A stretch of 64,000 bases of DNA, taken from contig CACMIG010000001.1 of the NCBI GenBank assembly GCA_902613705.1, positions 115,667-179,666 of the forward strand, read 5' to 3'. The translations under genes were made by a program, and so were the position numbers. Shown here in pieces: positions 1-36,602 of this stretch (its first letter is position 1; every line of letters begins with the position of its first letter). A model generated the notes under the pieces. The model saw nothing but the letters and a program-made list of their open reading frames with translations, did not search any database and was not told the origin of the DNA. Source of the stretch: an uncultured SAR86 cluster bacterium. GTDB lineage: Bacteria; Pseudomonadota; Gammaproteobacteria; Magnimaribacterales; D2472.

Positions 1-90
1 GTTTTGAGGGCAATCCGAGCATTATTAGTGGCATTAAAACAATATTAAAATCTTTCTAGTAAGAATAATATTTTTTTCATGAATTCTATT

Positions 91-483: not shown

Positions 484-494
484 ATTCTCTCCAG

Positions 495-2242: not shown

Positions 2243-2246
2243 TGTG

Positions 2247-3448: not shown

Positions 3449-3810
3449 ATATTTTTTATGCTCTCTTCAAAATTTATTCCATCAAAGTAAATGACTTCTT
3501 TAATCTCTGGTGGATCATCTACACATTTAAGGTTAATGCTATACATTTCAGGATGAGACCTTGGTTGATAAAAGGACTTGATACCACACCTTTTGCAGAA
3601 AAAGTGTTTTGCTGAACCACTCTCAAAGTTATATTCTAAAAGTAAATCTTCTCCAGCGATAAGTTCAAAAAGTTCATGCTTTACGAAGAGATGCTGATAA
3701 TTAATCATGTCACAAATGGAACAATTGCAGTTCCATATTTCAACATTTTCATCTGATTTAAATTTGAATTTGACTCCACCACAATGACAGCTACCAGTGT
3801 ATTCTTTCAT
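3445..3810 (-). CDS. GFA (glutathione-dependent formaldehyde-activating)/CENP-V family protein
   Basis: GSCHCGGVKF and CNCSIC zinc-cysteine motifs; start placed at the internal MKEYTG rather than the ORF-track ATG at 3843. Confidence 0.65.
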   Translation of the reverse strand: MKEYTGSCHCGGVKFKFKSDENVEIWNCNCSICDMINYQHLFVKHELFELIAGEDLLLEYNFESGSAKHFFCKRCGIKSFYQPRSHPEMYSINLKCVDDPPEIKEVIYFDGINFEESIKNI

Positions 3811-3817
3811 AATTTTT

Positions 3818-3988
3818 CTATAACAAATATCCTGTAGCAACAAACATCCAAAATGCCATCATAGCTATAGTTAAAAAGAAAAATATTTGAGCCTGTTTTA
3901 TCTTATTCATTTGGTACAAAGATATACAAAATAAGATGCCAATAAATCCTATCGTTAATGCTACAAATAAATGCGCTTGATATGACAT
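3818..3988 (-). CDS. small hydrophobic hypothetical protein
   Basis: two predicted TM helices; start trimmed to MSYQAHL to avoid overlap with the upstream gene; no recognisable family. Confidence 0.3.
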   Translation of the reverse strand: MSYQAHLFVALTIGFIGILFCISLYQMNKIKQAQIFFFLTIAMMAFWMFVATGYLL

Positions 3989-3992
3989 TAAG

Positions 3993-4439
3993 TTAAATCC
4001 ATCTTCTTGTCTTATTTTTGTATTTTTCAAATTCATCACCAAAAAGCTTATCCATTACAATTTCTTCTGGAATAATTTGAAATCTTGTTATATAGCCAAC
4101 GAAGAGCATAGTAAGAATAGCCCCTCCTATTAAATTAAATTTAAATGATACTGCAAGAAGAATTAAAACCATTCCTAGATACATCGGGTTTCTTGAGTAT
4201 TTAAAAACTCCTGAAACAACCAAAGAAGTTGCTTTGTCAATATTTATAGGATTAATAGTCGTCTGTTGTGCTTTAAATGATCTGGCTGCTGATATAAGAG
4301 TAAGTGGGCCAACTATTATCAGCAATAAACTTAAAACATTCAAAATTACATTACTAAAGTAAGGGAATAAGGGTTTAGAAAAATAAATTGCTAATCCAAA
4401 CACTAAAGTAACAATTGGTGGTGGTATCTTATTATTCAT
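3993..4439 (-). CDS. isoprenylcysteine carboxyl methyltransferase (ICMT/PEMT-like) family membrane protein
   Basis: 148 aa membrane protein with YSRNPMYLG motif typical of this family. Confidence 0.65.
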   Translation of the reverse strand: MNNKIPPPIVTLVFGLAIYFSKPLFPYFSNVILNVLSLLLIIVGPLTLISAARSFKAQQTTINPINIDKATSLVVSGVFKYSRNPMYLGMVLILLAVSFKFNLIGGAILTMLFVGYITRFQIIPEEIVMDKLFGDEFEKYKNKTRRWI

Positions 4440-4525
4440 ACTATGAATTAAATCATATTTTTTTGATGCCTTAAATATATTGATTAATGTGCTTATAATA
4501 ATGTTAAGGGTTTTAGGAGATCAAA

Positions 4526-5464
4526 ATGCGTAATTCACTTTTTTATATTTTATTTATTTCCCTCTTTGCAATCTCAGATGATGGTTGCGAAGTTTCTAAA
4601 TGGGGTAAAGATGATGAGATTGGTTCTGCCAATCTAATATCAAATGCCAACACTTTAAATGCGATTAAACTTGTTAAAAAAGGTATGTCTCATGGTCTTG
4701 GAATTGTTATTGAGCCTGGGATGCCGGCTTTCCCGCCAAGATATACAGAATTACAAGTAGTTCAACCAAATCAACACTTTGGAAGAGATACAACTGAAGA
4801 TTTTGGATACGACATCACCTACAACGATGACATTTTGCAAATGTGGATTGGAACAGGACCTCAGCTGGATGGATTAGGTCATATTGGTGATGATGATATC
4901 TTTTATAACTGCCATAAAGGTGCAGACTTCTCTTATATAACTGGCCTAACTAAATTTGGTATTGAAAAAGTTCCTCCACTGGTTGGTAGAGGCGTGGTAG
5001 TAAATATGGCAAAGTATTTTGGAATAACTGCTATGGCTGGAGGTCAGGGAATTACAAGAGACGATATAAAAAATGCAGCCAAGCAACAAAACATTAAATT
5101 TAAAGAAGGAGATATTATTCTTTTCCACACTGGTTGGACTGATGCATACCTAAAAAGCTCTCCAGAATTATGGGGAAGTACAATACCAGGTATTACTAAT
5201 GATGCAGCTGTATATTTATCTTCACTTAATCCTATGGCTGTTGGAGCCGATACATGGGGACTAGGTGCAGTTCCTCCAGTTGAGGGCGATTTGGTTTACT
5301 ATGATCACGTAACTCTTATCAAGGAGAACGGTATTTATATATTAGAGACTATGAATACTGGTAAGTTGGCTGAGGATAATGTTACAGAATTCCTATTTGT
5401 CTTAGGTCAGCCAAAGCTTAAGGGTGCTGTTCAAATGATTATTAATCCTGTGGCTCTTTGGTAG
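4526..5464 (+). CDS. putative cyclase/formamidase-family protein, secreted
   Basis: 312 aa, N-terminal signal-like segment, QLDGLGHIG and FHTGW motifs resembling the cyclase family. Confidence 0.5.
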   Translation: MRNSLFYILFISLFAISDDGCEVSKWGKDDEIGSANLISNANTLNAIKLVKKGMSHGLGIVIEPGMPAFPPRYTELQVVQPNQHFGRDTTEDFGYDITYNDDILQMWIGTGPQLDGLGHIGDDDIFYNCHKGADFSYITGLTKFGIEKVPPLVGRGVVVNMAKYFGITAMAGGQGITRDDIKNAAKQQNIKFKEGDIILFHTGWTDAYLKSSPELWGSTIPGITNDAAVYLSSLNPMAVGADTWGLGAVPPVEGDLVYYDHVTLIKENGIYILETMNTGKLAEDNVTEFLFVLGQPKLKGAVQMIINPVALW

Positions 5465-6311
5465 ACATATTAAAATTAGACCTTAAGAAAGATGAAATAG
5501 TTTGTCTTATGATTTCATCTTCTTCTTCAGAAAAGTAATAATGTCCGCCTCCGTCAATTGTTAAAAGTTGATGTTGGTCTTTTAATTTCTCATCTAGAAG
5601 CACTGCTTGCTCATATGGTACCCACCTGTCACTTGTACCATGAATTGTTAAAACATTTAGATTAATTCCATCTAATATGTTTATTGGTGAAAGTGTTTTA
5701 GTAATTTGATCAATGTTTGCATCAGATCCAATCCATCCTTTTACATAATTTGAAGCATTAAAGAACTTTGTTTTATCTAAAAATTCTGAAGTTTGCTTAA
5801 TTTCTGTTATACCAAAAATATTTATTATAGCTTTAGGCGGAATTTCACCTTCACATTCTTTATTATTATAGTTGGCTGATAAGCCAACCATTAATGCTAG
5901 ATGTCCCCCGGCACTAGCACCAGCTACAATAATATCTTCAGTAGAAAGATTTCTTAGCGAAGCATCGTGGATTATTTTTTTGTATGCGCAAATTACATCA
6001 TCAACTGCATTTGGAGCAGTTAACTTACCTATTCTGTAACCAATCATGTAAACATTAAAATCTTGATGATCAATAAAATGATTTTGAAATCTTTTTATCC
6101 ACCTCTCAGCTCTTTTGTCACCATATAACCACCCACCCCCATGGATCCAAACCAAAACCTTGTCTGAAGAGCCTTTATAAAAATCAATTCTTTGTTTTTC
6201 GTCATTGCCGTATGAGATTTCATTTATATCTAATACCTCACTAGAAATTACAAGCAAAGGTATGAGCAACAAAGTTATCTTTATTAAATTGATTAATTTA
6301 TCGGTCTTCAT
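5442..6311 (-). CDS. alpha/beta hydrolase (esterase/lipase, HGGG type)
   Basis: HGGGW oxyanion motif and GASAGGHLA nucleophile elbow; signal-like N-terminus. Confidence 0.7.
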   Translation of the reverse strand: MKTDKLINLIKITLLLIPLLVISSEVLDINEISYGNDEKQRIDFYKGSSDKVLVWIHGGGWLYGDKRAERWIKRFQNHFIDHQDFNVYMIGYRIGKLTAPNAVDDVICAYKKIIHDASLRNLSTEDIIVAGASAGGHLALMVGLSANYNNKECEGEIPPKAIINIFGITEIKQTSEFLDKTKFFNASNYVKGWIGSDANIDQITKTLSPINILDGINLNVLTIHGTSDRWVPYEQAVLLDEKLKDQHQLLTIDGGGHYYFSEEEDEIIRQTISSFLRSNFNMSTKEPQD

Positions 6312-6942
6312 AAAACTTGATATAAAAAAAGTACATTACAGCTGGAAGGATAACAACGCCAAAAAATACAAGAGATGAGGATTGATTTTCAATTGCTGCT
6401 GCACCAATACCGGAGAAGATTATTGCCACCCCAATATTTGTAATGCTAACCGCTAAAAAGAAAAATTTAAAAGAAATATTTGAAATTCCTGCAGTAATCG
6501 CAGTTAACTCAGCAAAACCTGGTATTGGTCTAGATATTATTAAACTTATGATGTTAAAATTTTTTAGTGAGGCTTCGGCTTCAATTAGTTCCTTATTGTT
6601 TAATACTTTTTTTGCAATGGGTCTTCCAGCAAAACGTCCTATTAAATAAGCTATCGATGCTCCAATATTTAAGCCTATCCATACAACAAGAGAGGAAGTA
6701 GCCCAACCCAAAGACATTCCTGCAAAAGTATTAGTAAGACCGTTGGGGACAGGCAAAAAAACATCAGCGGTTAAGGCTAAAATTACTATTAAAGAAATTA
6801 ATAATTTGTTGGATCCGGCCCAATCGAGAGCAATTTCACCATAATTTGCGAGTGGAGTTTCTAAAAAAGTCATTGGCAAAACTATAGAGGTAAAGATAAT
6901 CACACTAAAAAAAATAAATTTAATCCAAAGTGGTATTTTCAT
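6298..6942 (-). CDS. TVP38/TMEM64 (DedA-related, VTT domain) membrane protein
   Basis: 214 aa polytopic membrane protein; pattern similar to VTT-domain proteins. Confidence 0.5.
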   Translation of the reverse strand: MKIPLWIKFIFFSVIIFTSIVLPMTFLETPLANYGEIALDWAGSNKLLISLIVILALTADVFLPVPNGLTNTFAGMSLGWATSSLVVWIGLNIGASIAYLIGRFAGRPIAKKVLNNKELIEAEASLKNFNIISLIISRPIPGFAELTAITAGISNISFKFFFLAVSITNIGVAIIFSGIGAAAIENQSSSLVFFGVVILPAVMYFFYIKFYEDR

Positions 6943-6953
6943 TTAATTGTTCT

Positions 6954-7436
6954 TTACACTTTTTTCCATACTAACAAATCTTTAAATCCATTAAATTCAG
7001 CTGATAGTGTTAGTAAGGTATTTTTTGATGAAAACGAGTACTCTCTTGTTAATGTGGTATCGACCCATTGAGGCAATAGACTAAGCTCTACATTATGATA
7101 TACATTCGATTTGTCTGCGTTAAATGTACCAGCATATGATACATATCCGTTTGATGCCAAAAAAAAGTTCTTAATAGTCTCTAATAAATCACCATCAAAT
7201 GAGATTTCGTTTTCATTTTTTAACATCTTACTAATCTTTGAAATCTTTAACCTATCATCAGATACATTTACACGATTTTTTTGCATTAAATTTGCAGACA
7301 TCCATCCATCAGGGTGATATATCAAATAGCCAGCAACATTGCCTGAAAAGGGATATTTTTTTTCGCCTTCTGGTTTTTCAACAGACCATTCAAACAGTTT
7401 CCATGTTCCTATAAACTTTTGTTGATGCTCTTTCAT
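6954..7436 (-). CDS. lipocalin-like domain protein
   Basis: FIGTWKLFEW start typical of bacterial lipocalin-like domain proteins. Confidence 0.45.
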   Translation of the reverse strand: MKEHQQKFIGTWKLFEWSVEKPEGEKKYPFSGNVAGYLIYHPDGWMSANLMQKNRVNVSDDRLKISKISKMLKNENEISFDGDLLETIKNFFLASNGYVSYAGTFNADKSNVYHNVELSLLPQWVDTTLTREYSFSSKNTLLTLSAEFNGFKDLLVWKKV

Positions 7437-7768
7437 TCTATTTTCTCACAATCCAATGCATAGCCACTTATTTCAAAACCTGCTTTAGAATTTAGTTGAT
7501 TTGAAATTACGCCAGCATTTCCTCCCCTTTCAACTATTTTATTTTTAAACTCAGTTATAGCATTTCTTCTATCAGCACCTGCTGTCATTGATTTTTTACC
7601 AAATGCATTAATTGGAGTAACTTCTATGCAATTAAAGTTCTCTTTTTGCTTGAGAGTAATTATTTGAACTTGTTGATCAATATTTGGAGATAAAGTTGTT
7701 GTACAGCCAAGTAAAAAAAATATAGGGGTGGTGACTAAAATATTTTTATACTTTTCTTTTATATTCAT
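7433..7768 (-). CDS. small lipoprotein (DUF4156-like)
   Basis: lipobox LLGC, 111 aa, C-terminal ERGGNAGV pattern. Confidence 0.45.
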   Translation of the reverse strand: MNIKEKYKNILVTTPIFFLLGCTTTLSPNIDQQVQIITLKQKENFNCIEVTPINAFGKKSMTAGADRRNAITEFKNKIVERGGNAGVISNQLNSKAGFEISGYALDCEKIE

Positions 7769-7837
7769 TCAAATCGAATTTGTTTTAAGGACAACTCTTG
7801 TTCAAAATTTCATAACTGTTTTAGATTGGATTCGTAA

Positions 7838-8248
7838 CTACGACTCCTTATTTGGGTTCCAAATTACTAAGTTTTTAGTTTTAAGTCTGTTTACTACCAA
7901 CTTATATCTTGATTGTTCTTCCTTCCACTCTTTTAGCCAATTAGCTCCATCTCTCTCTGCATCAACAAATATTGCGTTAGTAAATGCAAGAGGCAATATT
8001 ACTCCTATGTGTATTATTATGCTTGCAATAGTATTATATCCAAACCATCCTAAATAATTTGCTGCTAAAAACCCAAAGAATGCGCTCCACACTGTGAACA
8101 AAACTAACATGAAATATGTTTGTAAGCTTGGATCAGGTATATACTTTAATGGATTATATCTCACGTCCATTACTCTTCTCCAACCACTTACTATTTTCAT
8201 TACACTTCTTCTAAAAAGGCTGGGTTTCTTCATACTTGGCTCAATCAT
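7838..8248 (-). CDS. hypothetical membrane protein
   Basis: 136 aa with two hydrophobic helices; no family recognised. Confidence 0.45.
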   Translation of the reverse strand: MIEPSMKKPSLFRRSVMKIVSGWRRVMDVRYNPLKYIPDPSLQTYFMLVLFTVWSAFFGFLAANYLGWFGYNTIASIIIHIGVILPLAFTNAIFVDAERDGANWLKEWKEEQSRYKLVVNRLKTKNLVIWNPNKES

Positions 8249-8345
8249 TACTACTCCTGTTGAATCTTACAAACTCCTTGATCACATGCATTCCAACACT
8301 TATCCATGTTACCGCAATTAAACTCCAAAATAATATCTCAATCAT
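8241..8345 (-). CDS. possible 34-aa membrane peptide, translationally coupled to the downstream ORF
   Basis: hand-translated MIEILFWSLIAVTWISVGMHVIKEFVRFNRSSND; its TGA overlaps the ATG of 7838..8248 (AATGATTGA). Confidence 0.25.
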   Translation of the reverse strand: MIEILFWSLIAVTWISVGMHVIKEFVRFNRSSND

Positions 8346-8398
8346 ATGAATTTACAATCTTGATTTACAAATTATACAGTGATTTATGCAACCTTTTT

Positions 8399-9085
8399 TC
8401 ATCGTCTTGAAAGTATAACGATCCAGCGGCCAAGATTTAAAATATCGGCTAGTGCAGCCGACACATATGTCAGAGCTGCTGCCCTAAGAACCTGACTAAC
8501 GGCTTTTTCATTTGACTGCGATACATAATTCCCTTCCCTTAATATGGGTAAGGCTTTAGAAAAACTTGCATCAAATTCAATAGGCAATGTGACTGCATGA
8601 ACCATCATGCGAGCAATAAAGCCAGACAGCCCTAAGAATAGTAATAAAGAAAATGGCATTGGATGCCTCGTAATAATGCCGATTACTGGCGATAATGAAA
8701 TAATGGAAACGCTCCATCGGGCTACCACATCAACAACTGGAGCCATCTTTGTTCTTGTAGCCAGCCGTTTATCACCTTGATGATCTTGGATAGCATGTCC
8801 AACCTCATGAGCAGCAATAGCGATTGCGGTCAACGACTTTGATTCATAATGCTCTCGTAAAAGTCTAACTTTTTTTTCAATAGGATCATAATGATCTCCA
8901 AGCTCAGTTGTTTCAACCTCAACATCTTTTAAAGAAAATCGCTTAATCAAATGCTTTGCGAGCTCTCCACCAGTGCCAGGCATTTCAGGCTTTTCAGTTG
9001 AATAACGCCTCATGACAAACTTCACCCACAAAGATGGTCCAAATATTATTGCTAATACTATTAGGGCGCCTAACGCGTACAACAT
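8399..9085 (-). CDS. membrane-anchored zinc metallopeptidase (Zn_peptidase_2 family)
   Basis: HEVGHAIQ zinc motif and HYDP...VRL pattern typical of this family. Confidence 0.8.
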   Translation of the reverse strand: MLYALGALIVLAIIFGPSLWVKFVMRRYSTEKPEMPGTGGELAKHLIKRFSLKDVEVETTELGDHYDPIEKKVRLLREHYESKSLTAIAIAAHEVGHAIQDHQGDKRLATRTKMAPVVDVVARWSVSIISLSPVIGIITRHPMPFSLLLFLGLSGFIARMMVHAVTLPIEFDASFSKALPILREGNYVSQSNEKAVSQVLRAAALTYVSAALADILNLGRWIVILSRR

Positions 9086-9104
9086 ATTTTATCCTTGTAA
9101 AAAA

Positions 9105-9479
9105 TTATTCTTTTACTTGTTCTTTTCTGAGAGTATATCCTGCTAATAAAGCTAAAATAAATAAAGCTGGTATGTCACCTAAAAAATGTCCCATTTCATG
9201 GCTATCGATGGCGGCTTGATAAGCCATAATCCCTCCATGAACAACACTGCTCCATACTACAAACCAGACAAACATTGAATGTCTTACTGGGTCGTTTGAG
9301 GCAATTATCATCATAACTCCAAGGGTCATATAGACTCCTTGAATCATCATTTCGTATTCCCATTGAGCAGGACTCCAGGCCCAACCACCCAAAGGATCTA
9401 ATTTCATCATTGGGATAATAAATATAAAAGCTACTCCAAAGACTCTTAAAGTATTCTTTAATATCAATAAATTGTTCAT
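9105..9479 (-). CDS. hypothetical membrane protein (distal array module)
   Basis: 124 aa, three to four TM helices, strong SD (AAAGGAGTAAGAT-ATG) immediately after repeat unit R1. Confidence 0.6.
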   Translation of the reverse strand: MNNLLILKNTLRVFGVAFIFIIPMMKLDPLGGWAWSPAQWEYEMMIQGVYMTLGVMMIIASNDPVRHSMFVWFVVWSSVVHGGIMAYQAAIDSHEMGHFLGDIPALFILALLAGYTLRKEQVKE

Positions 9480-9498
9480 ATCTTACTCCTTTATCAAC

Positions 9499-9567
9499 AA
9501 ACTCACAGTTAAAACTTACTCTACCGTGACTGATTAGTTTTGAACAGTGATTTGATTTATCTTTCAT
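9499..9567 (-). repeat. array unit R1: arm + glmS 3'-end copy + arm
   Basis: degenerate arm aaactcacagtt 9499-9510; glmS-end copy 9516-9533 reads TCA GTC ACG GTA GAG TAA (SVTVE*) on the minus strand; arm aacagtgattt 9543-9553. Confidence 0.85.
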
Positions 9568-9745
9568 TTTCTACATCCTCCAAAATAATGTGTTCCATAA
9601 GAAAAGGTGGAACATATAACACCCTTGATTACACTTCCTCTTTCGCCACTTGGAACATATATAAAAAATGAAATGACAATTGTTGAAATTATTATAAATA
9701 TATAAAGATGTTTTTTTAAAAAACCCACTTATAAACTAATTACTT

Positions 9746-9813
9746 AAATCACTGTTTAAACTTACTCTACAGTGACTGACTTGAACAAAACAGTGATTTG
9801 ATTTTTTATTCAT
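9746..9813 (-). repeat. array unit R2
   Basis: arm aaatcactgtt 9746-9756; copy 9762-9782 reads AAG TCA GTC ACT GTA GAG TAA (KSVTVE*); arm aacagtgattt 9789-9799 plus conserved gattttttattcat tail. Confidence 0.9.
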
Positions 9814-10012
9814 TGTTTTTTAAAAGTTGATGTCTGTAGAAAAGAATGCCGAACCAAATTGAAAAGATAAAAACTTCTAGGGTTATCATCAAATTATAAT
9901 TTTCAACAAAATTGGGAATAATGATAATTGTCAGCATGCCGAAGAATCCAGTTAATGTTCCACCTACAAAAGAATCGTTTTTCTTAAGATAGTTCTGTAA
10001 CATTTCTTTCAT
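9806..10012 (-). CDS. small membrane protein (array module)
   Basis: 68 aa, two TM helices; bounded by a 12-bp inverted arm pair (9788-9799 and 10016-10027); stop codon lies in the conserved repeat tail. Confidence 0.5.
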   Translation of the reverse strand: MKEMLQNYLKKNDSFVGGTLTGFFGMLTIIIIPNFVENYNLMITLEVFIFSIWFGILFYRHQLLKNNE

Positions 10013-10015
10013 CTT

Positions 10016-10076
10016 AAATCACTGTTTCCTTTATCTCCACCATCACTGATTGGTTTTAAACTTTGATTTAATTCTT
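10016..10076 (-). repeat. array unit R3 (stop codon of the glmS-end copy deleted)
   Basis: arm aaatcactgttt 10016-10027; copy 10035-10049 reads TCA GTG ATG GTG GAG followed by ATAAAGG, the same heptamer that follows the real glmS stop; degenerate arm aaactttgattt 10057-10068. Confidence 0.8.
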
Positions 10077-10519
10077 TATTTTCCAGTTGAAATATTTATT
10101 GGAATTATAGCGATCTTTAATTTCCAATAATCTCCTCTTTTTATTAAAGTTATATTTGTATCGGTAGATATAAGTTCAACATCTTGGTTGTTAAATCTGG
10201 TGAAGTTAGTTTTATATATTGCAAAATCTTCTTGTGAAACTATTGGATCTATTGAATTGATTTTTGAATATGCCCAACCTTCTTTTTTTAAGTTTTCATA
10301 ATTAACAATTTCACTATAACTTTTTGCAACTATTATTTCATCGCCAACAAAATAAGTCATTGGTAAATCCCATAGTTCATTAATTTTATTTATATCCATC
10401 TCATTGAAATGATAGAAAAAATCTTCGATAACTTTCTCTGGGTTGTTGTTTGCGTCTTTTGCAAATAACAAAGAAGAAAATAAAAATGAAGTTAATAAAA
10501 TGTTTCTAATATAAATCAC
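10076..10519 (-). CDS. secreted NTF2-fold-like hypothetical protein (array module)
   Basis: 147 aa with signal peptide; GTG start lies inside an orphan arm; fold call is tentative. Confidence 0.5.
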   Translation of the reverse strand: MIYIRNILLTSFLFSSLLFAKDANNNPEKVIEDFFYHFNEMDINKINELWDLPMTYFVGDEIIVAKSYSEIVNYENLKKEGWAYSKINSIDPIVSQEDFAIYKTNFTRFNNQDVELISTDTNITLIKRGDYWKLKIAIIPINISTGK

Positions 10520-11039
10520 TGTTTTCTTCTATTAATTTATTTTTATATAATCTTGTTCCAACTAAAAGGTCGCTGTTATATTCTCTTACTTTATAGATTA
10601 AATTGTCTTTAAACTTAAAAACCCAAACATATTTATTGTCGTATTCACCATTTATGCCCTCAGCATCTCCTTCTTGAATTAGCGCGACACCTTCAGTATC
10701 TGCAATTATGTCAATGGTCTTTAATACTATTCCATTTGGTAATAGCTCGCCAACAACTGGCCAATAATCTGAAAAGAAATCCTCTTTCCCGTAAGAAATT
10801 CCCCCTTTACCATATGGCCCATTTACATTTTCAGTTATGCCCATATAGATAAAGGTAAATTCTTCGTGCATTGAATTTTTTACATCATCCAAGTTGTTTG
10901 ACAAAAGATTGTCTATCCAATTTTGGGCTAATTCAATATTTTCATTAGTAACTTTGTCGACTTCGATATATTGCACATTTGAATACTCACATGAGAATAA
11001 AAACATCAAACCAAAAACTAACATGTAAATTTTTTTCAT
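10506..11039 (-). CDS. SnoaL/NTF2-like lipoprotein (array module)
   Basis: start moved to MKKIYMLVFGLMFLFSC (lipobox, SD GAGAGAGGA upstream); the ORF-track start is 11063. Confidence 0.55.
   Translation of the reverse strand: MKKIYMLVFGLMFLFSCEYSNVQYIEVDKVTNENIELAQNWIDNLLSNNLDDVKNSMHEEFTFIYMGITENVNGPYGKGGISYGKEDFFSDYWPVVGELLPNGIVLKTIDIIADTEGVALIQEGDAEGINGEYDNKYVWVFKFKDNLIYKVREYNSDLLVGTRLYKNKLIEENSDLY
10513..10523. repeat. orphan arm (aaatcactgtt) at the junction of two array ORFs
   Basis: exact 11-mer identical to the left arms of R2, R3 and R8; no adjacent glmS-end copy. Confidence 0.6.
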
Positions 11040-11130
11040 AATTAAATCCTCTCTCACTTTCATATATCCTAAATAATATTTAATACATAATAAATTATAT
11101 TTAATAAGTACATTTTTTATACTTATTTTT

Positions 11131-11216
11131 AAAACTCACACATAATATGAGGTTATAGCGAAAAACCGAGAAAACTTACTCTACAGTTAATGATTAATTT
11201 TAAACAGTGATTTAAT
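11131..11216 (-). repeat. array unit R5 (left arm displaced by a ~30-bp insertion)
   Basis: degenerate arm aaaactcaca 11131-11140; copy 11176-11193 reads TCA TTA ACT GTA GAG TAA (SLTVE*); arm aacagtgattt 11203-11213. Confidence 0.8.
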
Positions 11217-11243
11217 TCTTTATTTTCCAGTTGAAATATTTAT
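11209..11243 (-). repeat. 35-bp exact duplicate of the 3' end of the 147-aa module (10065-10099)
   Basis: gatttaattctttattttccagttgaaatatttat is identical at both sites and covers the last 8 codons plus stop of ORF 10076..10519. Confidence 0.9.
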
Positions 11244-11264
11244 AGATGAAAGTACGTATATCCT

Positions 11265-11316
11265 TCATTCGACGGTGATTGATTAGATTTGAACAGTGAT
11301 TTGATTTTTTATCCAT
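11265..11316 (-). repeat. array unit R6 (no left arm)
   Basis: copy 11265-11282 reads TCA ATC ACC GTC GAA TGA (SITVE*); arm gaacagtgatttgattttttatccat from 11291. Confidence 0.8.
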
Positions 11317-11503
11317 AATTGTCTGAAAAATATTTTTCTCTATCTTCTTTATTCATGCCAACTGTTTCGTTCATAAAATTGTTTCTATCTTCTCTAGATT
11401 TGAAGACCCATATACAAACAGTGTCCTGTGAGTGATAGATTGCTTTTAGTTCATCATCTATTTCACAGATTTCTTTTGGGATTTCTGTCTTAATACAAAT
11501 CAT
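11309..11503 (-). CDS. hypothetical protein (array module)
   Basis: 64 aa; ATGA overlap with the upstream ORF; stop codon inside the conserved repeat tail. Confidence 0.45.
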   Translation of the reverse strand: MICIKTEIPKEICEIDDELKAIYHSQDTVCIWVFKSREDRNNFMNETVGMNKEDREKYFSDNYG

Positions 11504-11886
11504 GACTCAAATCTTAACTTTCTGTGTATCAATGTAAACAAACCTGCTCCAATTATAGTCCATAGAATATCATTCCAATCGAAGACACCTCTTCCAGGTG
11601 TAAAAATTGTAATGAACTCATTGGCAATTAATCCCGATATGGAGATTCCTACTGACCAATAGAGTCGATTTTTAAATAAAGATGAATTAGGTTTGGATAC
11701 TTCTGGAATTACTACATATAACAGAGCAGGCAATCCAATTCCTGGCAAGAAATTTGGAGCAACCCCAAGAAGATAAATTATTATTTCATTAGCACCATCA
11801 TAATTTGGTCTTATGTAATCCTGGACTATAGAAAAAAGCAAAAAAGAAATAGCAAAAATAATGTAATAAACGAACTTTCTATTCAT
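11500..11886 (-). CDS. membrane protein, possibly VanZ-like (array module)
   Basis: 128 aa, four TM helices; ANEF...PGRGVFDWNDILWTIIGAG loosely resembles VanZ-family motifs. Confidence 0.5.
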   Translation of the reverse strand: MNRKFVYYIIFAISFLLFSIVQDYIRPNYDGANEIIIYLLGVAPNFLPGIGLPALLYVVIPEVSKPNSSLFKNRLYWSVGISISGLIANEFITIFTPGRGVFDWNDILWTIIGAGLFTLIHRKLRFES

Positions 11887-11891
11887 TTAAT

Positions 11892-11933
11892 TTATTCAAC
11901 AGTTACTGATTAAGTTCGAACAGTGATTTACTC
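11892..11933 (-). repeat. array unit R7 (no left arm)
   Basis: copy 11892-11909 reads TCA GTA ACT GTT GAA TAA (SVTVE*, all changes synonymous); arm gaacagtgattta 11918-11930. Confidence 0.85.
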
Positions 11934-12056
11934 TTCCTTGTAATCGTCTGCGAGAATCCCCTTTTCTTTTAAAGTCTTTGTAAGTTTTTCTAGACGCACA
12001 AGTGCAACCACTCCGACCATTCCAAACACAAAACCCATTACTGCCAACCCTTCCAT
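11928..12056 (-). CDS. unlisted 42-aa membrane peptide (array module)
   Basis: hand translation MEGLAVMGFVFGMVGVVALVRLEKLTKTLKEKGILADDYKEE; SD AAAGGGAGAG 4 nt before ATG; bounded by perfect 13-bp inverted arms; below the ORF-track size cutoff. Confidence 0.55.
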   Translation of the reverse strand: MEGLAVMGFVFGMVGVVALVRLEKLTKTLKEKGILADDYKEE

Positions 12057-12070
12057 AATTCTCTCCCTTT

Positions 12071-12104
12071 AAATCACTGTTCCAACTTACTCCACCGTAA
12101 CGAA
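12071..12104 (-). repeat. array unit R8 (arm + glmS-end copy)
   Basis: arm aaatcactgtt 12071-12081; copy 12087-12104 reads TTC GTT ACG GTG GAG TAA (FVTVE*). Confidence 0.85.
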
Positions 12105-12108
12105 GTAT

Positions 12109-12126
12109 ATAAAGGTGTCTACTTTT
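12109..12126. repeat. left 18-bp terminal inverted repeat of the GIY-YIG module
   Basis: ataaaggtgtctactttt is the exact reverse complement of 12747-12764; overlaps the stop codon of the GIY-YIG ORF. Confidence 0.9.
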
Positions 12127-12733
12127 AATTTTCTTCAACTTCCCTTCTTAATTCTGATAGTGTTTTACCATTATGTGTCCAAAATCTAGGACCTTGGATT
12201 TTCCCCCAATTATAACCTTGTTCATTCATTAGAATTAATGCTGCACTTGAAAGAGAATGGTCTTGTCCTCGAAAATTAACTCTAGTTTTTGAGGTTACCT
12301 CACAAGTAATATTTTCATCTCTTGTAAATTTTAATATTGTTCCAGGTTGGATATTTACCATATTAAAATTAAATCGTTCTCTTATTCTTGTCTCATTTTC
12401 AAAGGCAACTCTATCTTCTTCGGTTTCAAAGTTTTCTCCTTGTGGGGTTACATCATTGCCTGGTATCAAATCAAAAAAATGTATTAATTCTTCCTCAAGA
12501 ATCCTAAAGAATTCTCTTCTGTTATTAAGTCTTTTGCTGCCAAATGCAGCATGAAGTTTTGTTTCAACAAAATCCATGTCTTCTACTTCTTTTGCGTAAA
12601 TACATTCAAATGGCAATGGAACTCCTGTGCTATATAAAGATGATAGTCTTTGTTCAAGATTAGTGGTTTTGCCTATTTTTACCAAATCTGGCATTGCGGG
12701 ATTTGTTAAAACATAAATTATCCCTTTTGACAT
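12125..12733 (-). CDS. GIY-YIG nuclease superfamily protein (T5orf172/MUG113-like N-terminus, possibly DUF4357-like C-terminus)
   Basis: GIIYVLTNPAMPDLVKIGKTTNLEQRLSSLYSTGVPLPFE matches my recollection of the T5orf172 pattern; the C-terminal LSSAALILMN...NGKTLSELR call is tentative. Confidence 0.65.
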   Translation of the reverse strand: MSKGIIYVLTNPAMPDLVKIGKTTNLEQRLSSLYSTGVPLPFECIYAKEVEDMDFVETKLHAAFGSKRLNNRREFFRILEEELIHFFDLIPGNDVTPQGENFETEEDRVAFENETRIRERFNFNMVNIQPGTILKFTRDENITCEVTSKTRVNFRGQDHSLSSAALILMNEQGYNWGKIQGPRFWTHNGKTLSELRREVEEN

Positions 12734-12746
12734 AATTTTATCTAAA

Positions 12747-12764
12747 AAAAGTAGACACCTTTAT
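12747..12764. repeat. right 18-bp terminal inverted repeat, abutting the glmS stop codon
   Basis: aaaagtagacacctttat ends 1 nt before the glmS TAG (12765-12767). Confidence 0.9.
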
Positions 12765-14591
12765 CTACTCCACCGTGACTGACTTTGCTAAATTTCTTGG
12801 TTGGTCAATGTCGGTTCCTCTTAACAAAGCTACTTCATAAGAAAGTATTTGAAGAGGTATCGTATAAATGATTGGCGTCAAAAGGAAGTCGCACTTTGGC
12901 ATATTGATGAGTCTTCCAGACTTTAAGTCCATTGAAATTGAAGGATCAGAAAATACATATAGAGTTCCGCCCCTAGCTTTAACTTCTTCTAAGTTTGATA
13001 CTAATTTTTCAGCTATCTCACTTTCTGGAGCTAAAGCAATAACTGGCATTTCTTCATCAATTAATGCGAGAGGACCGTGTTTTAACTCCCCAGCTGGATA
13101 GGCTTCAGCATGAATGTAAGAAATTTCTTTGAGCTTTAGAGCCCCTTCTTTTGCGATTGGATAAAAAATACCTCTGCCTAAAAACAAAGCATTATCTTTA
13201 TTAGCTATTTCAGGTGCGATTTCTAGAATTGTGTCTTTAAGTTTTAATGTTTCTTCGACCGTTTCTGGCAATGATCTTAATGCTGTTATTACTCTTGTTC
13301 TTAGCTTTGGATTTTTTCCCCTGCTTTTTGCAAGAGACAAAGCTAGCAACATTAAGGCTGCAAGTTGTGTTGTGAAGGCTTTTGTAGAGGCAACTCCAAT
13401 TTCAGGACCGGCGTTCGTAAATATTGAATACTCTGATTCTCTTGCAAGAGAACTTGTAGGAACATTACAAACACAAAGGGTGGATAGATAATCCTTTTCT
13501 TGTGCATATCTTAAAGCAGCAAGGGTATCAGCTGTTTCTCCAGATTGAGAAATTGTTACAAGGAGAGAGTCATCGTCCACATGGGGATTTCTATATCTAT
13601 ATTCAGAAGCATAGTCTATTTGTGTAGGAAGTTCTGAAATTGCTGAAAACCAATTAGCTGCAACCCTTCCAGCATGCAAGCTTGTTCCACAGGCCACAAT
13701 TTGGACTCTCTTAACTTTTTCGAAGATTTCAGATGAACCAAGACCAAATATATTTTCTAAAACATCGTCTCCGCCTACTCTCCCATCAATGGTCTTTAGA
13801 ATTGCTTCTGGTTGCTCATAAATTTCTTTCTCCATGAAATGCCGATATTCGCCTTTAGATATAGCTTGACTTGAAATATCTATTTGAGAAATTTCTCTTT
13901 TTACTTTGTTCTTAGACTCATCAAAAATGGTATAAGTCTCAGATGATAATTCTGCTACGTCTCCGTCTTCTAAAAAAATAAACTCATTGGTAAGTTGGCC
14001 AATCGCCAATGGGTCTGATGCAGCCAAAAATTCATCCATTCCAATTCCTATTAAAAGTGGAGATTTGCTTCTAGCAATAATAATATTTTGATCGTCTTCT
14101 TTGTCTATAGCTGCTATTGCATAAGCGCCATCGAGCTTTTCTTTGGTTAAATACATTGAATCTAACATGCTATTTCCTTTATTAAGGAAATATTCAAGAA
14201 GGTGAGCTATTAATTCAGAATCTGTTTGGGATGAAAAAGAATAACCTTCTTTTTTTAAAAAATCTTTAAGATCTAGATAATTCTCAATTATTCCATTGTG
14301 AACGATATAAACTCTTTCATTTGACATATGTGGATGTGCATTTTCTTCTGATGGTTCTCCGTGAGTTGCCCATCTAGTGTGAGCAATGCCAAGCTTACTT
14401 TTTGGCTTTTCAGCAATCATTTTTTCTTCTAGTAGCTGTACTTTTCCTTGAGTTCTAAGATGAGCAATTTGGTCTGTTTGATGAAGAGCAATTCCAGCAG
14501 AATCATAGCCACGGTATTCCATTTTATGTAGTCCTTGAACAAGCAACTTTCCAACGTTTCGATTTGAGGCAGCAGCTATAATTCCACACAT
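12765..14591 (-). CDS. glmS: glutamine--fructose-6-phosphate aminotransferase
   Basis: MCGII N-terminal nucleophile, 608 aa, canonical C-terminus LAKSVTVE. Confidence 0.97.
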   Translation of the reverse strand: MCGIIAAASNRNVGKLLVQGLHKMEYRGYDSAGIALHQTDQIAHLRTQGKVQLLEEKMIAEKPKSKLGIAHTRWATHGEPSEENAHPHMSNERVYIVHNGIIENYLDLKDFLKKEGYSFSSQTDSELIAHLLEYFLNKGNSMLDSMYLTKEKLDGAYAIAAIDKEDDQNIIIARSKSPLLIGIGMDEFLAASDPLAIGQLTNEFIFLEDGDVAELSSETYTIFDESKNKVKREISQIDISSQAISKGEYRHFMEKEIYEQPEAILKTIDGRVGGDDVLENIFGLGSSEIFEKVKRVQIVACGTSLHAGRVAANWFSAISELPTQIDYASEYRYRNPHVDDDSLLVTISQSGETADTLAALRYAQEKDYLSTLCVCNVPTSSLARESEYSIFTNAGPEIGVASTKAFTTQLAALMLLALSLAKSRGKNPKLRTRVITALRSLPETVEETLKLKDTILEIAPEIANKDNALFLGRGIFYPIAKEGALKLKEISYIHAEAYPAGELKHGPLALIDEEMPVIALAPESEIAEKLVSNLEEVKARGGTLYVFSDPSISMDLKSGRLINMPKCDFLLTPIIYTIPLQILSYEVALLRGTDIDQPRNLAKSVTVE

Positions 14592-14597: not shown

Positions 14598-15953
14598 TTA
14601 GTCCTTCTTTTTAGACCAATTTTCTTTGTTATCTTGCTTTGCCCTTCCTACACCTAAAGCATTATCAGGAACATCTTTTGTAATAACAGATCCAGCTGCA
14701 ACATATGCATTTGAGCCAATTGTTACCGGTGCAACTAGTGATGAATTGGTTCCAACAAAGCTGTTATCTCCAATCTTTGTTTGATGTTTTTCCTTACCAT
14801 CATAATTACATGTGATTGTACCTGCTCCTATATTGGAGTCACTGCCAATGTCAGCATCTCCAAGATATGCAAAATGATTAGCTTTAGATTCTTTGCCAAC
14901 TTTTGTTTTTTTAGTTTCAACAAAATTGCCTATCTTTGCTGAATCATCTATGTGACTTCCCTCTCTTAGTCTTGCATATGGTCCTATAGAACAATTATTC
15001 CCGACTTTTGATGATACTAAATGAGAAAAAGCCTCAATTTTTGAATTATCTCCAATCTCAACGTCTTTTAAAATTGTATTTGGGCCTACAGACACGTTAT
15101 TGCCTAACGATACATCACCCTCCAAAATTACGTTCACGTCAATAAAGCAATCTTTACCAGCAGAGACATCTCCTCTAACGTCAATTCTAGATGGATCAGA
15201 TATAGTTATGCCCATATTTAATAGATCGTTTGCTTTCATTTCTCTATATATTCCCTCTAACTCTGACAATTCTTCTTTTGTATTAGCGCCCTTTACTTCA
15301 TCATTGGGAACAATACATGTATTAATTCTAAACCCTTTTGTATTAATTATAGAAACAATATCTGTTAAATAGTACTCTGATGCAGCATTATCGTTATTTA
15401 CTTCGCCTATTGCCTCTTCAAGTAGTTTTTTATTACAACAAAGTATCCCTGTAAAAATTTCTTTTATCTTTTTATCTTCCTTAGACGCATCTTTTTCCTC
15501 AACTATTGATATTGCCAATCCATTTTCGTTTTTCTTCACTCTTCCATAGCCAGTTGGATTTTTGAGTTCTGTGCTCAAAATCGTGAGGCTATCATCTGTC
15601 ATTGAAATTAGATTATTAAGTGTTTCATTTTTTATTAGAGGAACATCGCCGTATAAAACTAAAACCTTTGAGTTTTGCTTTATGGAGTCTAGTGCAGATT
15701 TCACAGCATCAGCAGTGCCAATTGGCTTTTTTTGTTCACAAATATGATTAATTCCAGAAAATTTTTCTATCTCATTGATTACCGAATCTTTTTCGAAGCC
15801 AACTACAAAAGAAGTTTCATCAGTTAAATTTGAAACAGTATCAAAAATACGCCTTAGCATTGACAGTCCGCCAACAGGTTGAAGAGATTTTGCTTTGTTT
15901 GATTGCATTCTAGAGCCCTCTCCGGCAGCTAGAATTACAGTATGAATTTTCAC
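14598..15953 (-). CDS. glmU: bifunctional UDP-N-acetylglucosamine pyrophosphorylase / GlcN-1-P acetyltransferase
   Basis: LAAGEGSRM motif, C-terminal hexapeptide repeats, position upstream of glmS. Confidence 0.95.
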   Translation of the reverse strand: MKIHTVILAAGEGSRMQSNKAKSLQPVGGLSMLRRIFDTVSNLTDETSFVVGFEKDSVINEIEKFSGINHICEQKKPIGTADAVKSALDSIKQNSKVLVLYGDVPLIKNETLNNLISMTDDSLTILSTELKNPTGYGRVKKNENGLAISIVEEKDASKEDKKIKEIFTGILCCNKKLLEEAIGEVNNDNAASEYYLTDIVSIINTKGFRINTCIVPNDEVKGANTKEELSELEGIYREMKANDLLNMGITISDPSRIDVRGDVSAGKDCFIDVNVILEGDVSLGNNVSVGPNTILKDVEIGDNSKIEAFSHLVSSKVGNNCSIGPYARLREGSHIDDSAKIGNFVETKKTKVGKESKANHFAYLGDADIGSDSNIGAGTITCNYDGKEKHQTKIGDNSFVGTNSSLVAPVTIGSNAYVAAGSVITKDVPDNALGVGRAKQDNKENWSKKKD

Positions 15954-32898: not shown

Positions 32899-32900
32899 AA

Positions 32901-36602
<3,702 letters not shown>

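What the first reader, a model, noticed from the sequence alone, without database searches (positions are those of the whole stretch)
9543..12082. Array modules are bounded by 11-13 bp perfect inverted arms that resemble part of the glmS end
Seen: the 42-aa module is flanked by gaacagtgattta (11918-11930) and taaatcactgttc (12070-12082), a 13-bp perfect inverted pair. The 68-aa module is flanked by aaacagtgattt (9788-9799) and aaatcactgttt (10016-10027), 12 bp. The ORF-less module is flanked by aacagtgattt (9543-9553) and aaatcactgtt (9746-9756), 11 bp. The locus can therefore be read in two ways. In one reading, arms flank each glmS-end copy. In the other, gene modules with terminal inverted repeats sit between glmS-end copies. 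On the minus strand the arm TCAAATCACTGT resembles the copy core TCAGTCACTGT. Each full unit thus carries the heptamer TCAC(T/G)GT three times: two direct and one inverted, with about 13 nt including the stop codon between the central and inverted copies. Inference: this arrangement suits binding sites for a site-specific recombinase or nuclease, or a hairpin in single-stranded DNA or RNA. Some junctions (R6, R7) have lost one arm and R5 has a 30-bp insertion, consistent with decay of older junctions.
Basis: partly seen in the sequence, partly recalled or inferred. Interest (0 to 1): 0.7.

Follow-up and report, generated by a model that had tools for sequence, protein, structure and literature searches.

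The report
Serine-recombinase cassette array after glmS
The inverted "arms" are most likely the two halves of recombination sites through which small gene cassettes are spliced, one after another, into the last codons of the glmS gene of the abundant ocean bacterium SAR86; this makes an integron-like gene-capture site that appears to be run by large serine recombinases.

Summary
All three arm pairs sit at the stated coordinates, and the exact 11-mer occurs 9 times in 9543-12081 and nowhere else in the 64 kb window.

The window is a SAR86 chromosome. In about 40 related SAR86 genomes, glmS is followed by 1-8 cassettes (median 616 nt). Each junction carries a copy of the last glmS codons (TCn GTn ACn GTn GAr TAr).

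Each cassette has about 16-nt inverted arms in a fixed register. One arm starts right after the stop codon. The other ends 4 nt before the next copy. Arms match across a cassette (median 12/16). Across a junction they match no better than random pairs (6/16).

The arms lie symmetrically, 10 nt on each side, around an invariant AC dinucleotide. Wobble-base linkage maps the crossover to that AC.

Two families of large serine recombinase (LSR) genes sit at the right end of 6-9 kb elements with the same geometry. One element is a 6,794-bp circle with the intact site: arm-ACAC-glmS end-arm.

The arms are therefore best read as attP half-site arms. The window's small cassettes carry no recombinase and are probably moved in trans. 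The closest analogues are SCC elements at rlmH, integrons and tycheposons. I found no published description.

The parts
12765..14591 (-). glmS (608 aa). Its last codons form the chromosomal attachment site.
   Evidence: ORF. It is 60-98% identical to SAR86 glmS.
12765..12782 (-). Core C0: the real glmS terminus, TCAGTCACGGTGGAGTAG (SVTVE*). The proposed crossover dinucleotide A7C8 is at 12775-12776.
12105..12764 (-). Cassette K1: 202-aa T5orf172/MUG113 (GIY-YIG-like) gene. Arms at 12749-12764 and 12109-12124 match 16/16. The 4-nt spacer ATAC is at 12105-12108.
   Evidence: Pfam; repeat I6. The same cassette is in L093 and L031.
12087..12104 (-). Core C1: TTCGTTACGGTGGAGTAA.
11910..12086 (-). 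Cassette K2: 42-aa ORF. Arms at 12071-12086 (GTTGGAACAGTGATTT) and 11914-11929 match 15/16. Spacer TTAA.
11892..11909 (-). Core C2: TCAGTAACTGTTGAATAA, a synonymous variant of SVTVE*.
11283..11891 (-). K3: two fused cassettes (128-aa and 64-aa ORFs) with the core between them lost. An internal arm ATTTGAGTCATGATTT lies at 11496-11511. The distal arm is at 11287-11302.
   Evidence: The 64-aa cassette on its own occurs in at least 8 other contexts.
11265..11282 (-). Core C3: TCAATCACCGTCGAATGA (SITVE*), slightly decayed.
11194..11264 (-). K4: a 71-nt gene-less remnant, a duplicate of the 3' end of the 147-aa cassette, with an arm at 11198-11213.
   Evidence: Repeat D4.
11176..11193 (-). Core C4: TCATTAACTGTAGAGTAA (SLTVE*).
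10050..11175 (-). K5: 185-aa and 147-aa ORFs. A decayed internal junction has an arm AAGAAAACAGTGATTT at 10508-10523. The distal arm is at 10054-10069.
   Evidence: (L004 14315 has the intact junction).
10032..10049 (-). Core C5: TCAGTGATGGTGGAGATA. It is degenerate, with the AC and the stop codon lost.
9780..10031 (-). Cassette K6: 68-aa membrane-like ORF. Arms at 10016-10031 and 9784-9799 match 14/16. Spacer CAAG.
   Evidence: The same cassette is in L002 and L007, with other neighbours.
9762..9779 (-). Core C6: TCAGTCACTGTAGAGTAA.
9534..9761 (-). Cassette K7: no confident gene (a 54-aa GTG ORF only). Arms at 9746-9761 and 9538-9553 match 14/16.
   Evidence: No relative in any fetched locus.
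9516..9533 (-). Core C7: TCAGTCACGGTAGAGTAA, the last recognisable copy.
8372..9515 (-). K8: DUF6632 and Zn-peptidase genes. The proximal arm is decayed (9500-9515). A lone distal arm AAATCACTGTA lies at 8375-8385. The core is lost.
5442..8371 (-). Older, variable part of the island with no recognisable cores. The conserved backbone resumes below about 5464.
   Evidence: Synteny with L003, L001 and L093.

Best explanation
The arms are the outer parts of the two half-sites (P and P') of attP-type recombination sites used by large serine recombinases (LSRs). The chromosomal target of these enzymes is the 3' end of glmS.

In its free circular form an element carries the site: arm (16 nt) - nnAnTCnGTn - AC - nGTnGArTAr - arm (16 nt). 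This is a roughly 54-bp quasi-palindrome whose centre copies the last glmS codons and the stop codon.

A staggered cut and exchange at the AC dinucleotide splices the circle into glmS. The incoming element supplies the last three codons and the stop codon of glmS. The displaced old end moves downstream. The two arms end up at opposite ends of the inserted DNA.

Repeated insertion at the glmS end builds an array, with the newest element next to glmS.

The window's 0.2-1.1 kb cassettes carry arms and a core but no recombinase. They are inferred to be moved in trans by LSRs of rare 6-9 kb autonomous elements. They are probably transcribed from glmS.

Shown here:
- the site anatomy;
- the position of the crossover;
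- the association of LSR genes with these sites;
- a free circle carrying the joined site;
- horizontal spread of cassettes.

Inferred:
- catalysis by these LSRs;
- mobilisation of the small cassettes in trans;
- read-through expression.
For: 1. About 40 SAR86 loci carry same-strand, in-frame copies of the glmS end that vary almost only at wobble positions. Non-SAR86 gammaproteobacteria have only the real end.

2. The geometry is fixed. One arm starts at +1 after the stop codon and the other ends 4 nt before the next core. Both are therefore 10 nt from the invariant A7C8. The inner halves are also symmetric, which explains the 80/81 conserved A at -2 in non-coding copies.

3. Arms match within a cassette (median 12/16). 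Across a junction they match no better than random pairs (6/16).

4. The crossover is mapped. The window's 64-aa cassette, in 8 contexts, keeps positions 9-18 (CGTTGAGTAG) at its left junction, and positions 1-6 there follow the left neighbour. It keeps positions 1-6 (TCAGTC) at its right junction, and positions 9-18 there follow the right neighbour. The same holds for LSR elements P0039, P0043 and P0129. Positions 6 and 9 differ freely between partners. This fits a 2-bp serine-type crossover and does not fit a 6-8 bp tyrosine-type overlap.

5. LSR genes (Resolvase + Recombinase + Zn ribbon; match to A118 integrase 4KIS, E 6e-10) lie about 25-50 nt upstream of arm + spacer + core in L002, L081, L084, L086-L097, L101, L102, L105 and L114-L118. 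In L002, L081, L093 and L105 the element starts right after the glmS stop codon.

6. Joined sites exist. L106 is a circle of 6,794 bp (30-nt terminal overlap; L107 and L109 are circular permutations). It carries ATTCTCTGTTCGAAA-ACAC-TCTGTGACTGTCGAGTAG-TTTCGAACAGAGAAT. Comparable joined sites are in L098 and L114.

7. Arm family tracks LSR family. AACAG(T/A)GAAT-type arms, close to the window's AACAGTGATTT, go with family 2 in 4 of 4 cases. Other arms go with family 1 in 6 of 6 cases.

8. The dimensions fit. A118 integrase contacts 25 bp per attP half-site, with its zinc-ribbon motif at positions 16-24 (PMC3783163). Here the conserved arm submotif AAyAGnGA falls at positions 16-23.

9. Cassette DNA is 97-99.6% identical in genomes whose glmS 3' end is only 65-77% identical.
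Against: - There is no recombinase gene in the window's array or in most arrays. Only 1 of 43 loci found through glmS has one.
- Canonical LSRs recombine only attP with attB. Repeated insertion here would require attP x attL-type pairing, and excision would require pairing of internal attP-like junctions.
- The A118-style zinc-ribbon motif shifted 5 bp inward is not visible in the glmS-side half of the target.
- Wobble position 12 is only weakly linked to the right neighbour (0.40-0.47).
- Several arm families, for example ATAAAGGTGTCTAC of the T5orf172 cassette, have no identified recombinase.
- No biochemical data exist.
Confidence: 0.75

Rival explanations
1. The small cassettes are not individually mobile. 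They are deletion remnants of full-length LSR elements, and their spread between genomes is by ordinary homologous recombination using glmS and shared cores or cassettes as anchors. The arms are relics of attL and attR.
For: LSR-bearing elements are rare, and the cassettes have no recombinase. One cassette type shares about 35 nt of both ends with LSR elements, as expected of internal deletion derivatives. Decayed and fused cassettes exist in the window.
Against: The same single-gene cassette occurs with at least 8 different left and right neighbours, and the switch point is always between core positions 6 and 9. Homologous exchange would scatter breakpoints. Cassettes are compact: the ORF covers 80% of the length, starting about 30 nt after one core and ending about 27 nt before the next. 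This is not what random deletion would leave.
Confidence: 0.12
2. This is an integron-like system. The arms form attC-like hairpins in single-stranded DNA that a tyrosine recombinase (IntI-like or Xer) recognises by structure.
For: Arm sequences differ between cassette families but stay complementary. The joined sites fold strongly as ssDNA (-17.9 and -21.4 kcal/mol, z -5.4 and -7.8). Cassettes are promoterless-looking and co-oriented (61 of 70). The autonomous elements carry a weak rolling-circle Rep-like gene, so ssDNA forms are possible.
Against: No tyrosine recombinase motif was found in any array. In arrays the complementary arms lie at opposite ends of a cassette, not together at its 3' end. 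Junction arms pair no better than random. The conserved core would sit in a 22-nt loop. Positions 6 and 9 next to the crossover differ between partners, which a 6-8 bp overlap would not tolerate. Serine recombinase genes, not tyrosine ones, are attached to the sites.
Confidence: 0.05
3. The modules are non-autonomous transposons (MITE-like, with a passenger gene). Their inverted repeats are transposase binding sites, and the glmS-end copies are long target-site duplications.
For: Terminal inverted repeats flanked by direct repeats of about 18-22 nt look superficially like a transposon.
Against: The two copies flanking one cassette differ at several wobble positions. Their left and right parts are linked to different neighbours, as in reciprocal exchange and not as in duplication. 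No transposase was seen. A free circle carries one core between joined arms.
Confidence: 0.03
4. The arms act at the RNA level or as generic repeats: terminators, processing or stabilising hairpins between cistrons, or a REP-like palindromic family.
For: Junction units with same-family arms in the window fold weakly (-8 kcal/mol, z about -2.2 to -2.7).
Against: Other junctions do not fold (z about 0). Across genomes, junction arms are not complementary. There is no Rfam match. Terminator-like sites are at chance level: 2 found, 1.8 expected. The motif is confined to the arrays.
Confidence: 0.03

Closest known systems
Staphylococcal cassette chromosome elements (SCC/SCCmec) with CcrAB/CcrC large serine recombinases at the 3' end of rlmH (orfX)
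   Same: Both insert into the last codons of a conserved housekeeping gene near oriC. Here dnaA lies about 17 kb from glmS. Both have direct repeats that contain the integration site sequence, inverted repeats at the element termini, several elements of various sizes integrated in tandem, and elements without recombinase genes (PMC3780952). Both use LSR-type enzymes. Family 2 here also has two serine recombinase genes side by side.
   Different: The host is a marine gammaproteobacterium and the target gene is glmS. The LSRs are only distantly related to known ones (at most 26% identity to annotated phage or plasmid enzymes). Cassettes are 10-100 times smaller (median 616 nt, usually one gene), co-oriented with the target gene, and number up to 8 per array. 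The core shared by element and target is 18-22 nt of coding sequence.
Integrons (IntI, attI, attC cassettes)
   Same: Both have arrays of compact, mostly single-gene, co-oriented cassettes. New cassettes enter at one fixed site next to an upstream transcription source. Cassette sites vary in sequence but are palindromic. Both have a circular cassette intermediate.
   Different: No tyrosine integrase gene was found next to the site or in any array. The palindromic site is split by recombination at its centre, so the arms flank the gene. The crossover is at an AC dinucleotide inside a copy of a coding sequence. The associated enzymes are serine recombinases.
Tycheposons of Prochlorococcus
   Same: Both occur in streamlined marine bacteria. 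In both, integrative elements pile up at one conserved gene's 3' end, leave partial copies of it, and successive insertions push older ones further into the island. Both have circular forms (bioRxiv 10.1101/2020.12.28.424599).
   Different: Tycheposons target tRNA genes, 910 of 937 use tyrosine recombinases, and the elements are kilobases long with their own integrase. The SAR86 arrays are dominated by recombinase-less single-gene cassettes.
Phage serine integrase attP/attB sites (A118, Bxb1, phiC31)
   Same: Both have a quasi-palindromic attP of about 50 bp around a non-palindromic central dinucleotide. Half-sites are about 25 bp with an outer zinc-ribbon motif at positions 16-24 (PMC3783163). 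The integrase gene lies next to attP.
   Different: Element and target share an 18-22 nt identity instead of a few bases. Tandem re-use of the site implies non-canonical site pairing. No inward-shifted outer motif is seen in the target.
Tn7 and Tn7-like insertion at attTn7 downstream of glmS
   Same: Both exploit the conserved glmS 3' end as a safe landing site.
   Different: Tn7 inserts about 25 bp downstream of glmS, makes a 5-bp duplication and carries tnsABCD (own knowledge). None of these features is present here. Here the exchange is inside the last glmS codons.

Membership tests
LSR-mediated integrative elements (SCC-like accretion array) | A large serine recombinase gene (Resolvase + Recombinase + zinc-ribbon domains) is carried by the element, next to its attachment site. 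| tested here: inconclusive
   Met for autonomous relatives with the same geometry (L002, L081, L087, L093, L105, L106, L114). Not met inside the window's own array, where no serine recombinase motif was found in the 64 kb.
LSR-mediated integrative elements (SCC-like accretion array) | attP is a quasi-palindrome of about 50 bp centred on a non-palindromic dinucleotide where the crossover occurs. | tested here: met
   Arms are equidistant (10 nt) from the invariant AC. The inner halves are symmetric. The total is about 54 bp. The crossover maps between core positions 6 and 9.
LSR-mediated integrative elements (SCC-like accretion array) | Integrated elements are flanked by direct repeats of the target's 3' end, with inverted repeats at their termini, and several elements lie in tandem. 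| tested here: met
   Window: 8 cores and 7 or more modules. Related loci have 1-8 modules.
LSR-mediated integrative elements (SCC-like accretion array) | A free circular form exists with the joined site. | tested here: met
   The L106 circle is 6,794 bp with a 30-nt terminal overlap and two circular permutations. This is shown only for an autonomous element, not for a mini-cassette.
LSR-mediated integrative elements (SCC-like accretion array) | The recombinase catalyses integration and excision at these sites. | not testable with these tools
   Requires a recombination assay.
Integron | An IntI-type tyrosine recombinase gene lies adjacent to the insertion site. | tested here: not met
   Upstream of the site are glmS, glmU and the atp operon. 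No tyrosine recombinase box motifs were found in any array. None appeared among the Pfam families listed for the downstream ORFs, although that output shows only the 25 families matched by the most ORFs.
Integron | Each cassette ends with an attC site whose two arms are adjacent and pair with each other. | tested here: not met
   Complementary arms are at opposite ends of a cassette. Arms adjacent at a junction match 6/16, the same as random pairs.
Integron | Cassettes are compact and co-oriented. | tested here: met
   61 of 70 small cassettes are co-oriented with glmS, and the ORF covers 80% of the cassette. Whether they lack their own promoters was not resolved: promoter-like sites are at chance level in 8300-12900.
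Tn7-like attTn7 insertion | Tn7 ends, a 5-bp duplication, tnsABCD genes, and insertion downstream of the glmS stop codon. | tested here: not met
   The exchange is inside the last codons. The repeats are 18-22 nt and not identical. No such genes appeared in the Pfam scans.
REP/BIME-type genome-wide palindromes | The repeats are dispersed in intergenic regions around the genome. | tested here: not met
   There are 0 exact copies outside 9543-12081 in the 64 kb. The motif is 28-fold enriched in arrays relative to 732 kb of flanking DNA. Whole genomes were not scanned.

The most novel reading that the evidence does not exclude
SAR86, and at least one alphaproteobacterial lineage, possesses a serine-recombinase counterpart of the integron. 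In this reading, single-gene mini-cassettes each carry a split attP whose centre encodes the last glmS codons. They are captured at the glmS stop codon, expressed by read-through from glmS, and exchanged across divergent lineages by LSRs supplied in trans from small, transient circular replicons. The LSRs would use relaxed site pairing that canonical serine integrases do not show.
Probability: 0.45. Interest if true: 0.8.

Novelty: new variant of a known kind. Interest (0 to 1): 0.68.

Why it matters
SAR86 is one of the most abundant heterotrophs of the surface ocean and has a small, streamlined genome. How such cells exchange genes is an open question.

This locus gives a concrete and testable mechanism: a single hotspot at glmS where cassettes are inserted by site-specific recombination. 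One 64-aa cassette protein is found, identical in sequence, in 576 blocks of the public assembly index. Its DNA is nearly identical in genomes whose glmS has diverged by 25-35%.

The locus also yields two new LSR families with predicted attP and attB sequences and a predicted crossover dinucleotide. Serine integrases with defined sites are sought for genome engineering. An enzyme that tolerates tandem re-use of its site would be mechanistically unusual.

For annotation, the extra glmS-end copies and the arms give a simple rule for delimiting cassettes in SAR86 genomes.

Tried and rejected
- Target-site duplication model. Rejected because the copies flanking one cassette differ and show reciprocal linkage.
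- Junction hairpin as the functional unit. Rejected by the cross-junction control and by the folds.
- Search for a recombinase inside the arrays. Pfam scans of window ORFs, of 150 downstream ORFs (which lists only the 25 families matched by the most ORFs) and motif regexes found only one LSR (L002) among 43 glmS-derived loci.
- Viral-contig searches. The scan with the L002 LSR found no relative. The scan with the window arm plus core pattern gave only two chance hits inside coding regions.
- Metagenome-contig scan with the arm + core + stop pattern. It gave 0 hits, which is unexplained.
- Test of the A118 rule that the outer motif recurs 5 bp closer to the centre in attB. Not seen on the glmS side.
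- The 'recurrent ORF ending AEIVEN' idea. The shared parts of that cassette type are its ends, not a gene, and the ORFs inside differ.
- Literature searches for a prior description of SAR86 glmS arrays found none.
- The K7 module has no relative in any fetched locus.

Full report
**1. Observation**

The window is about 33% G+C and holds dnaA-side genes, the atp operon, glmU (14598-15953) and glmS (12765-14591), all relevant genes on the minus strand.

The exact 11-mer AACAGTGATTT occurs 9 times, all within 9543-12081, and nowhere else in the 64 kb. With one mismatch there are 12 hits against 2.98 expected, and 0 of 100 shuffles reach 12. Copies of the glmS end are also far above chance: 6 against 0.1 expected.

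**2. What the unit looks like**

Read in the glmS sense, every junction has the same order:
- the stop codon of the upstream cassette ORF;
- a 16-nt arm;
- 4 nt;
- an 18-nt core, TCn GTn ACn GTn GAr TAr, which encodes S-V-T-V-E-stop, the C-terminus of GlmS;
- a 16-nt arm starting directly after the stop codon;
- a ribosome-binding-like stretch and the next ATG.

The cores in the window are synonymous variants of one another, for example TCAGTAACTGTTGAATAA and TCAGTCACTGTAGAGTAA. They have therefore been shaped by selection on the coding sequence.

**3. Related genomes**

A scan of species-representative genomes with the GlmS C-terminus returned about 40 SAR86 loci.

- Nearly all carry 1-8 further in-frame copies of the glmS end downstream of glmS, always on the same strand.
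- Alteromonas, Idiomarina and other gammaproteobacteria have only the real end.
- Among 81 copies selected for a perfect match at the 12 fixed core positions, variation is by definition confined to the wobble positions. The A two bases upstream of the core, which was not part of that selection, is kept in 80 of 81 copies although it is not coding there.
- The segments between copies have a median length of 616 nt.
- In 61 of 70 small segments the longest ORF is co-oriented with glmS. It covers 80% of the segment, begins about 30 nt after one core and ends about 27 nt before the next.

**4. Which arms belong together**

In a fixed register, the arm after a core and the reverse complement of the arm before the next core agree at a median of 12 of 16 positions. 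Arms on either side of the same core agree at 6 of 16, the same as random pairs.

Arm sequences differ widely between cassette families. Examples are AACAGTGATTT, AACAGAGAAT, TTTTGGGGGTAGGTGTTT, GTGCGAGTAGTGATTT, TTTCGTTTGCAGAAT and ATAAAGGTGTCTAC. The two arms of one cassette nevertheless stay complementary.

The hairpins that can be drawn across junctions in this window exist only because neighbouring cassettes share an arm family. They fold weakly (about -8 kcal/mol, z about -2.2), and the other junctions do not fold above shuffles.

The arm motif is 28 times denser in arrays than in 732 kb of flanking DNA.

**5. Symmetry and crossover**

Both arms lie exactly 10 nt from the invariant A7C8 of the core. 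The inner halves are also symmetric: nnAnTCnGTn on the left, against yTAyTCnACn for the reverse complement of the right. This symmetry accounts for the conserved A at -2.

The window's 64-aa cassette protein is present, with identical sequence, in 576 blocks of the assembly index. Ten genome contexts were retrieved, and in eight of them both junctions could be read:
- At its left junction, core positions 9-18 are always CGTTGAGTAG, whereas positions 1-6 follow whatever lies to the left (glmS alleles or other cassettes).
- At its right junction, positions 1-6 are TCAGTC (or one change), and positions 9-18 follow the right-hand neighbour.

The same split is seen for three recombinase-bearing elements, each found with several right-hand neighbours.

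The exchange point therefore lies in or immediately beside the AC. Positions 6 and 9 differ freely between partners, which argues for a 2-bp serine-type crossover and against a longer tyrosine-type overlap. It also excludes a target-site duplication.

**6. The enzymes**

In L002, a 6-kb element lies between the glmS stop codon and the next core. It has the same arm geometry and a 551-aa protein with Resolvase, Recombinase and zinc-ribbon domains at its right end.

Family 1:
- Homologues of this protein, down to 45% identity, sit in the same position in many SAR86-type contigs.
- Their stop codon is about 25-50 nt upstream of arm + spacer + core.
- In L081 and L093 the element begins directly after glmS.
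- L093 is a near relative of the window's genome. It has this element inserted in front of the same T5orf172 cassette that is first in the window.

Family 2:
- It is 27% identical to family 1.
- It is always preceded by a roughly 200-aa small serine recombinase.
- It shows the same arrangement in L087, L105 (integrated after glmS) and L114-L118.
- It matches the structurally characterised A118 integrase (4KIS, E 6e-10).

Family-2 elements carry AACAG(T/A)GAAT-type arms, close to the window's AACAGTGATTT. Family-1 elements carry other arms.

**7. Free form**

L106 is a 6,824-nt contig with a 30-nt terminal overlap. L107 and L109 are circular permutations of it at 100% identity. It is therefore a 6,794-bp circle, and that contig was recovered from 4 samples.

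Just after its recombinase gene it carries ATTCTCTGTTCGAAA-ACAC-TCTGTGACTGTCGAGTAG-TTTCGAACAGAGAAT. This is a perfect 15-nt inverted repeat around a 22-nt stretch that copies the glmS end. L098 and L114 show equivalent joined sites.

This is what an attP should look like. Its size agrees with the 25 bp per half-site contacted by A118 integrase. The conserved arm submotif falls at half-site positions 16-23, where the zinc-ribbon domain binds in that structure (PMC3783163).

**8. Mobility**

- Window cassettes recur in other genomes at different array positions.
- The 64-aa cassette DNA is 97-99.6% identical in genomes whose last 900 nt of glmS are only 65-77% identical to the window's.
- L003 is syntenic with window 1-5464, so the variable island spans about 5464-12764.

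**9. Mechanism proposed**

A circular element or cassette recombines at AC with the glmS end. It supplies the new last codons and stop codon of glmS, which explains why every core keeps a correct reading frame. The previous end is displaced downstream.

Repetition gives the array, and old junctions decay.

The small cassettes lack a recombinase and would depend on LSRs of rare autonomous elements. Only 1 of 43 glmS-derived loci has one.

No terminator-like sites above chance separate the cassettes, so co-transcription with glmS is plausible but untested.

**10. Open problems**

- Canonical serine integrases do not recombine attP with attL, yet tandem insertion requires something like that. To my knowledge the Ccr recombinases of SCCmec show such relaxed pairing.
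- The origin of single-gene cassettes is unknown.
- Some arm families have no known enzyme.
- No inward-shifted outer motif is seen in the target.

**11. Comparison with known systems and novelty**

The closest system is SCC/SCCmec at rlmH. It inserts into the 3' end of a housekeeping gene near oriC, has direct repeats carrying the integration sequence and terminal inverted repeats, forms tandem elements of various sizes, and uses serine recombinases (PMC3780952).

Integrons resemble this locus in cassette compactness and orientation, but they fail the tests for a tyrosine integrase and an attC site. Tycheposons are the ecological parallel in Prochlorococcus.

Searches of the held literature found no description of SAR86 glmS arrays. 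The LSRs have at most 26% identity to annotated phage or plasmid enzymes.

I class this as a new variant of a known kind.

Noticed in passing
L087 10018-12365; L105 8408-10707; L106 2380-4691; L114 4399-6737: Family-2 LSR genes are always preceded by a roughly 200-aa small serine recombinase (Resolvase + HTH) and overlap it by 4 nt or less. This is a two-recombinase module whose division of labour is unknown.
   Followed up: partly
L081 2049-2579; L087 1060-1584; L093 3863-4324; L098 2256-2732: The 6-9 kb LSR elements carry a gene with a weak match to REP_ORF2-G2P, a rolling-circle initiator type. They may be small integrative rolling-circle replicons.
   Followed up: no
L098 1-16130: A 16-kb contig holds more than two tandem copies (period 7,143 nt) of one LSR element, joined through arm-core-arm sites. 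It ends in an ordinary array cassette.
   Followed up: partly
L119-L122 (after the LSR stop codon); L120 4006: An LSR 46% identical to family 2, from a MAG labelled Alphaproteobacteria, is followed by CAAG-TCAACCACTGTGGAGTAG (STTVE*). A second copy lies about 1.4 kb downstream. The same kind of system seems to exist outside SAR86.
   Followed up: partly
window 12125-12733; L093 9745-10353; L005 10959-11861; L024 10659-11597; L012 11765-12451: Cassettes next to glmS often encode nuclease-type proteins: T5orf172/GIY-YIG-like, HNH, NucS/PDDEXK and Exo_endo_phos. They may be defence or selfish functions.
   Followed up: no
window 10035-10099 and 11179-11243; 11194-11264: A 65-nt direct repeat (86% identity) is a duplicated 3' end of the 147-aa cassette. 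It leaves a 71-nt gene-less pseudo-cassette.
   Followed up: partly
window 11496-11511 and ORFs 11309-11503 / 11500-11886: The 128-aa and 64-aa ORFs overlap (ATGA) at a junction whose core has been lost. The same fusion is present in L123 and L129, so it is an inherited derived state.
   Followed up: partly
window 9534-9761: This module has perfect-register arms but no confident gene, and it has no relative in any fetched locus.
   Followed up: partly
window 30503-35901: dnaA, dnaN, recF and gyrB-like ORFs lie about 17 kb from glmS, so the cassette array sits close to the replication origin, as SCC does in staphylococci. These gene identities were inferred from ORF order and size and were not checked with a family search.
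   Followed up: no
Metagenome-contig collection: The arm + core + stop pattern found nothing in the JGI metagenome collection, although the cassette is very common in ENA, Logan and NCBI assemblies. The reason is unknown.
   Followed up: no
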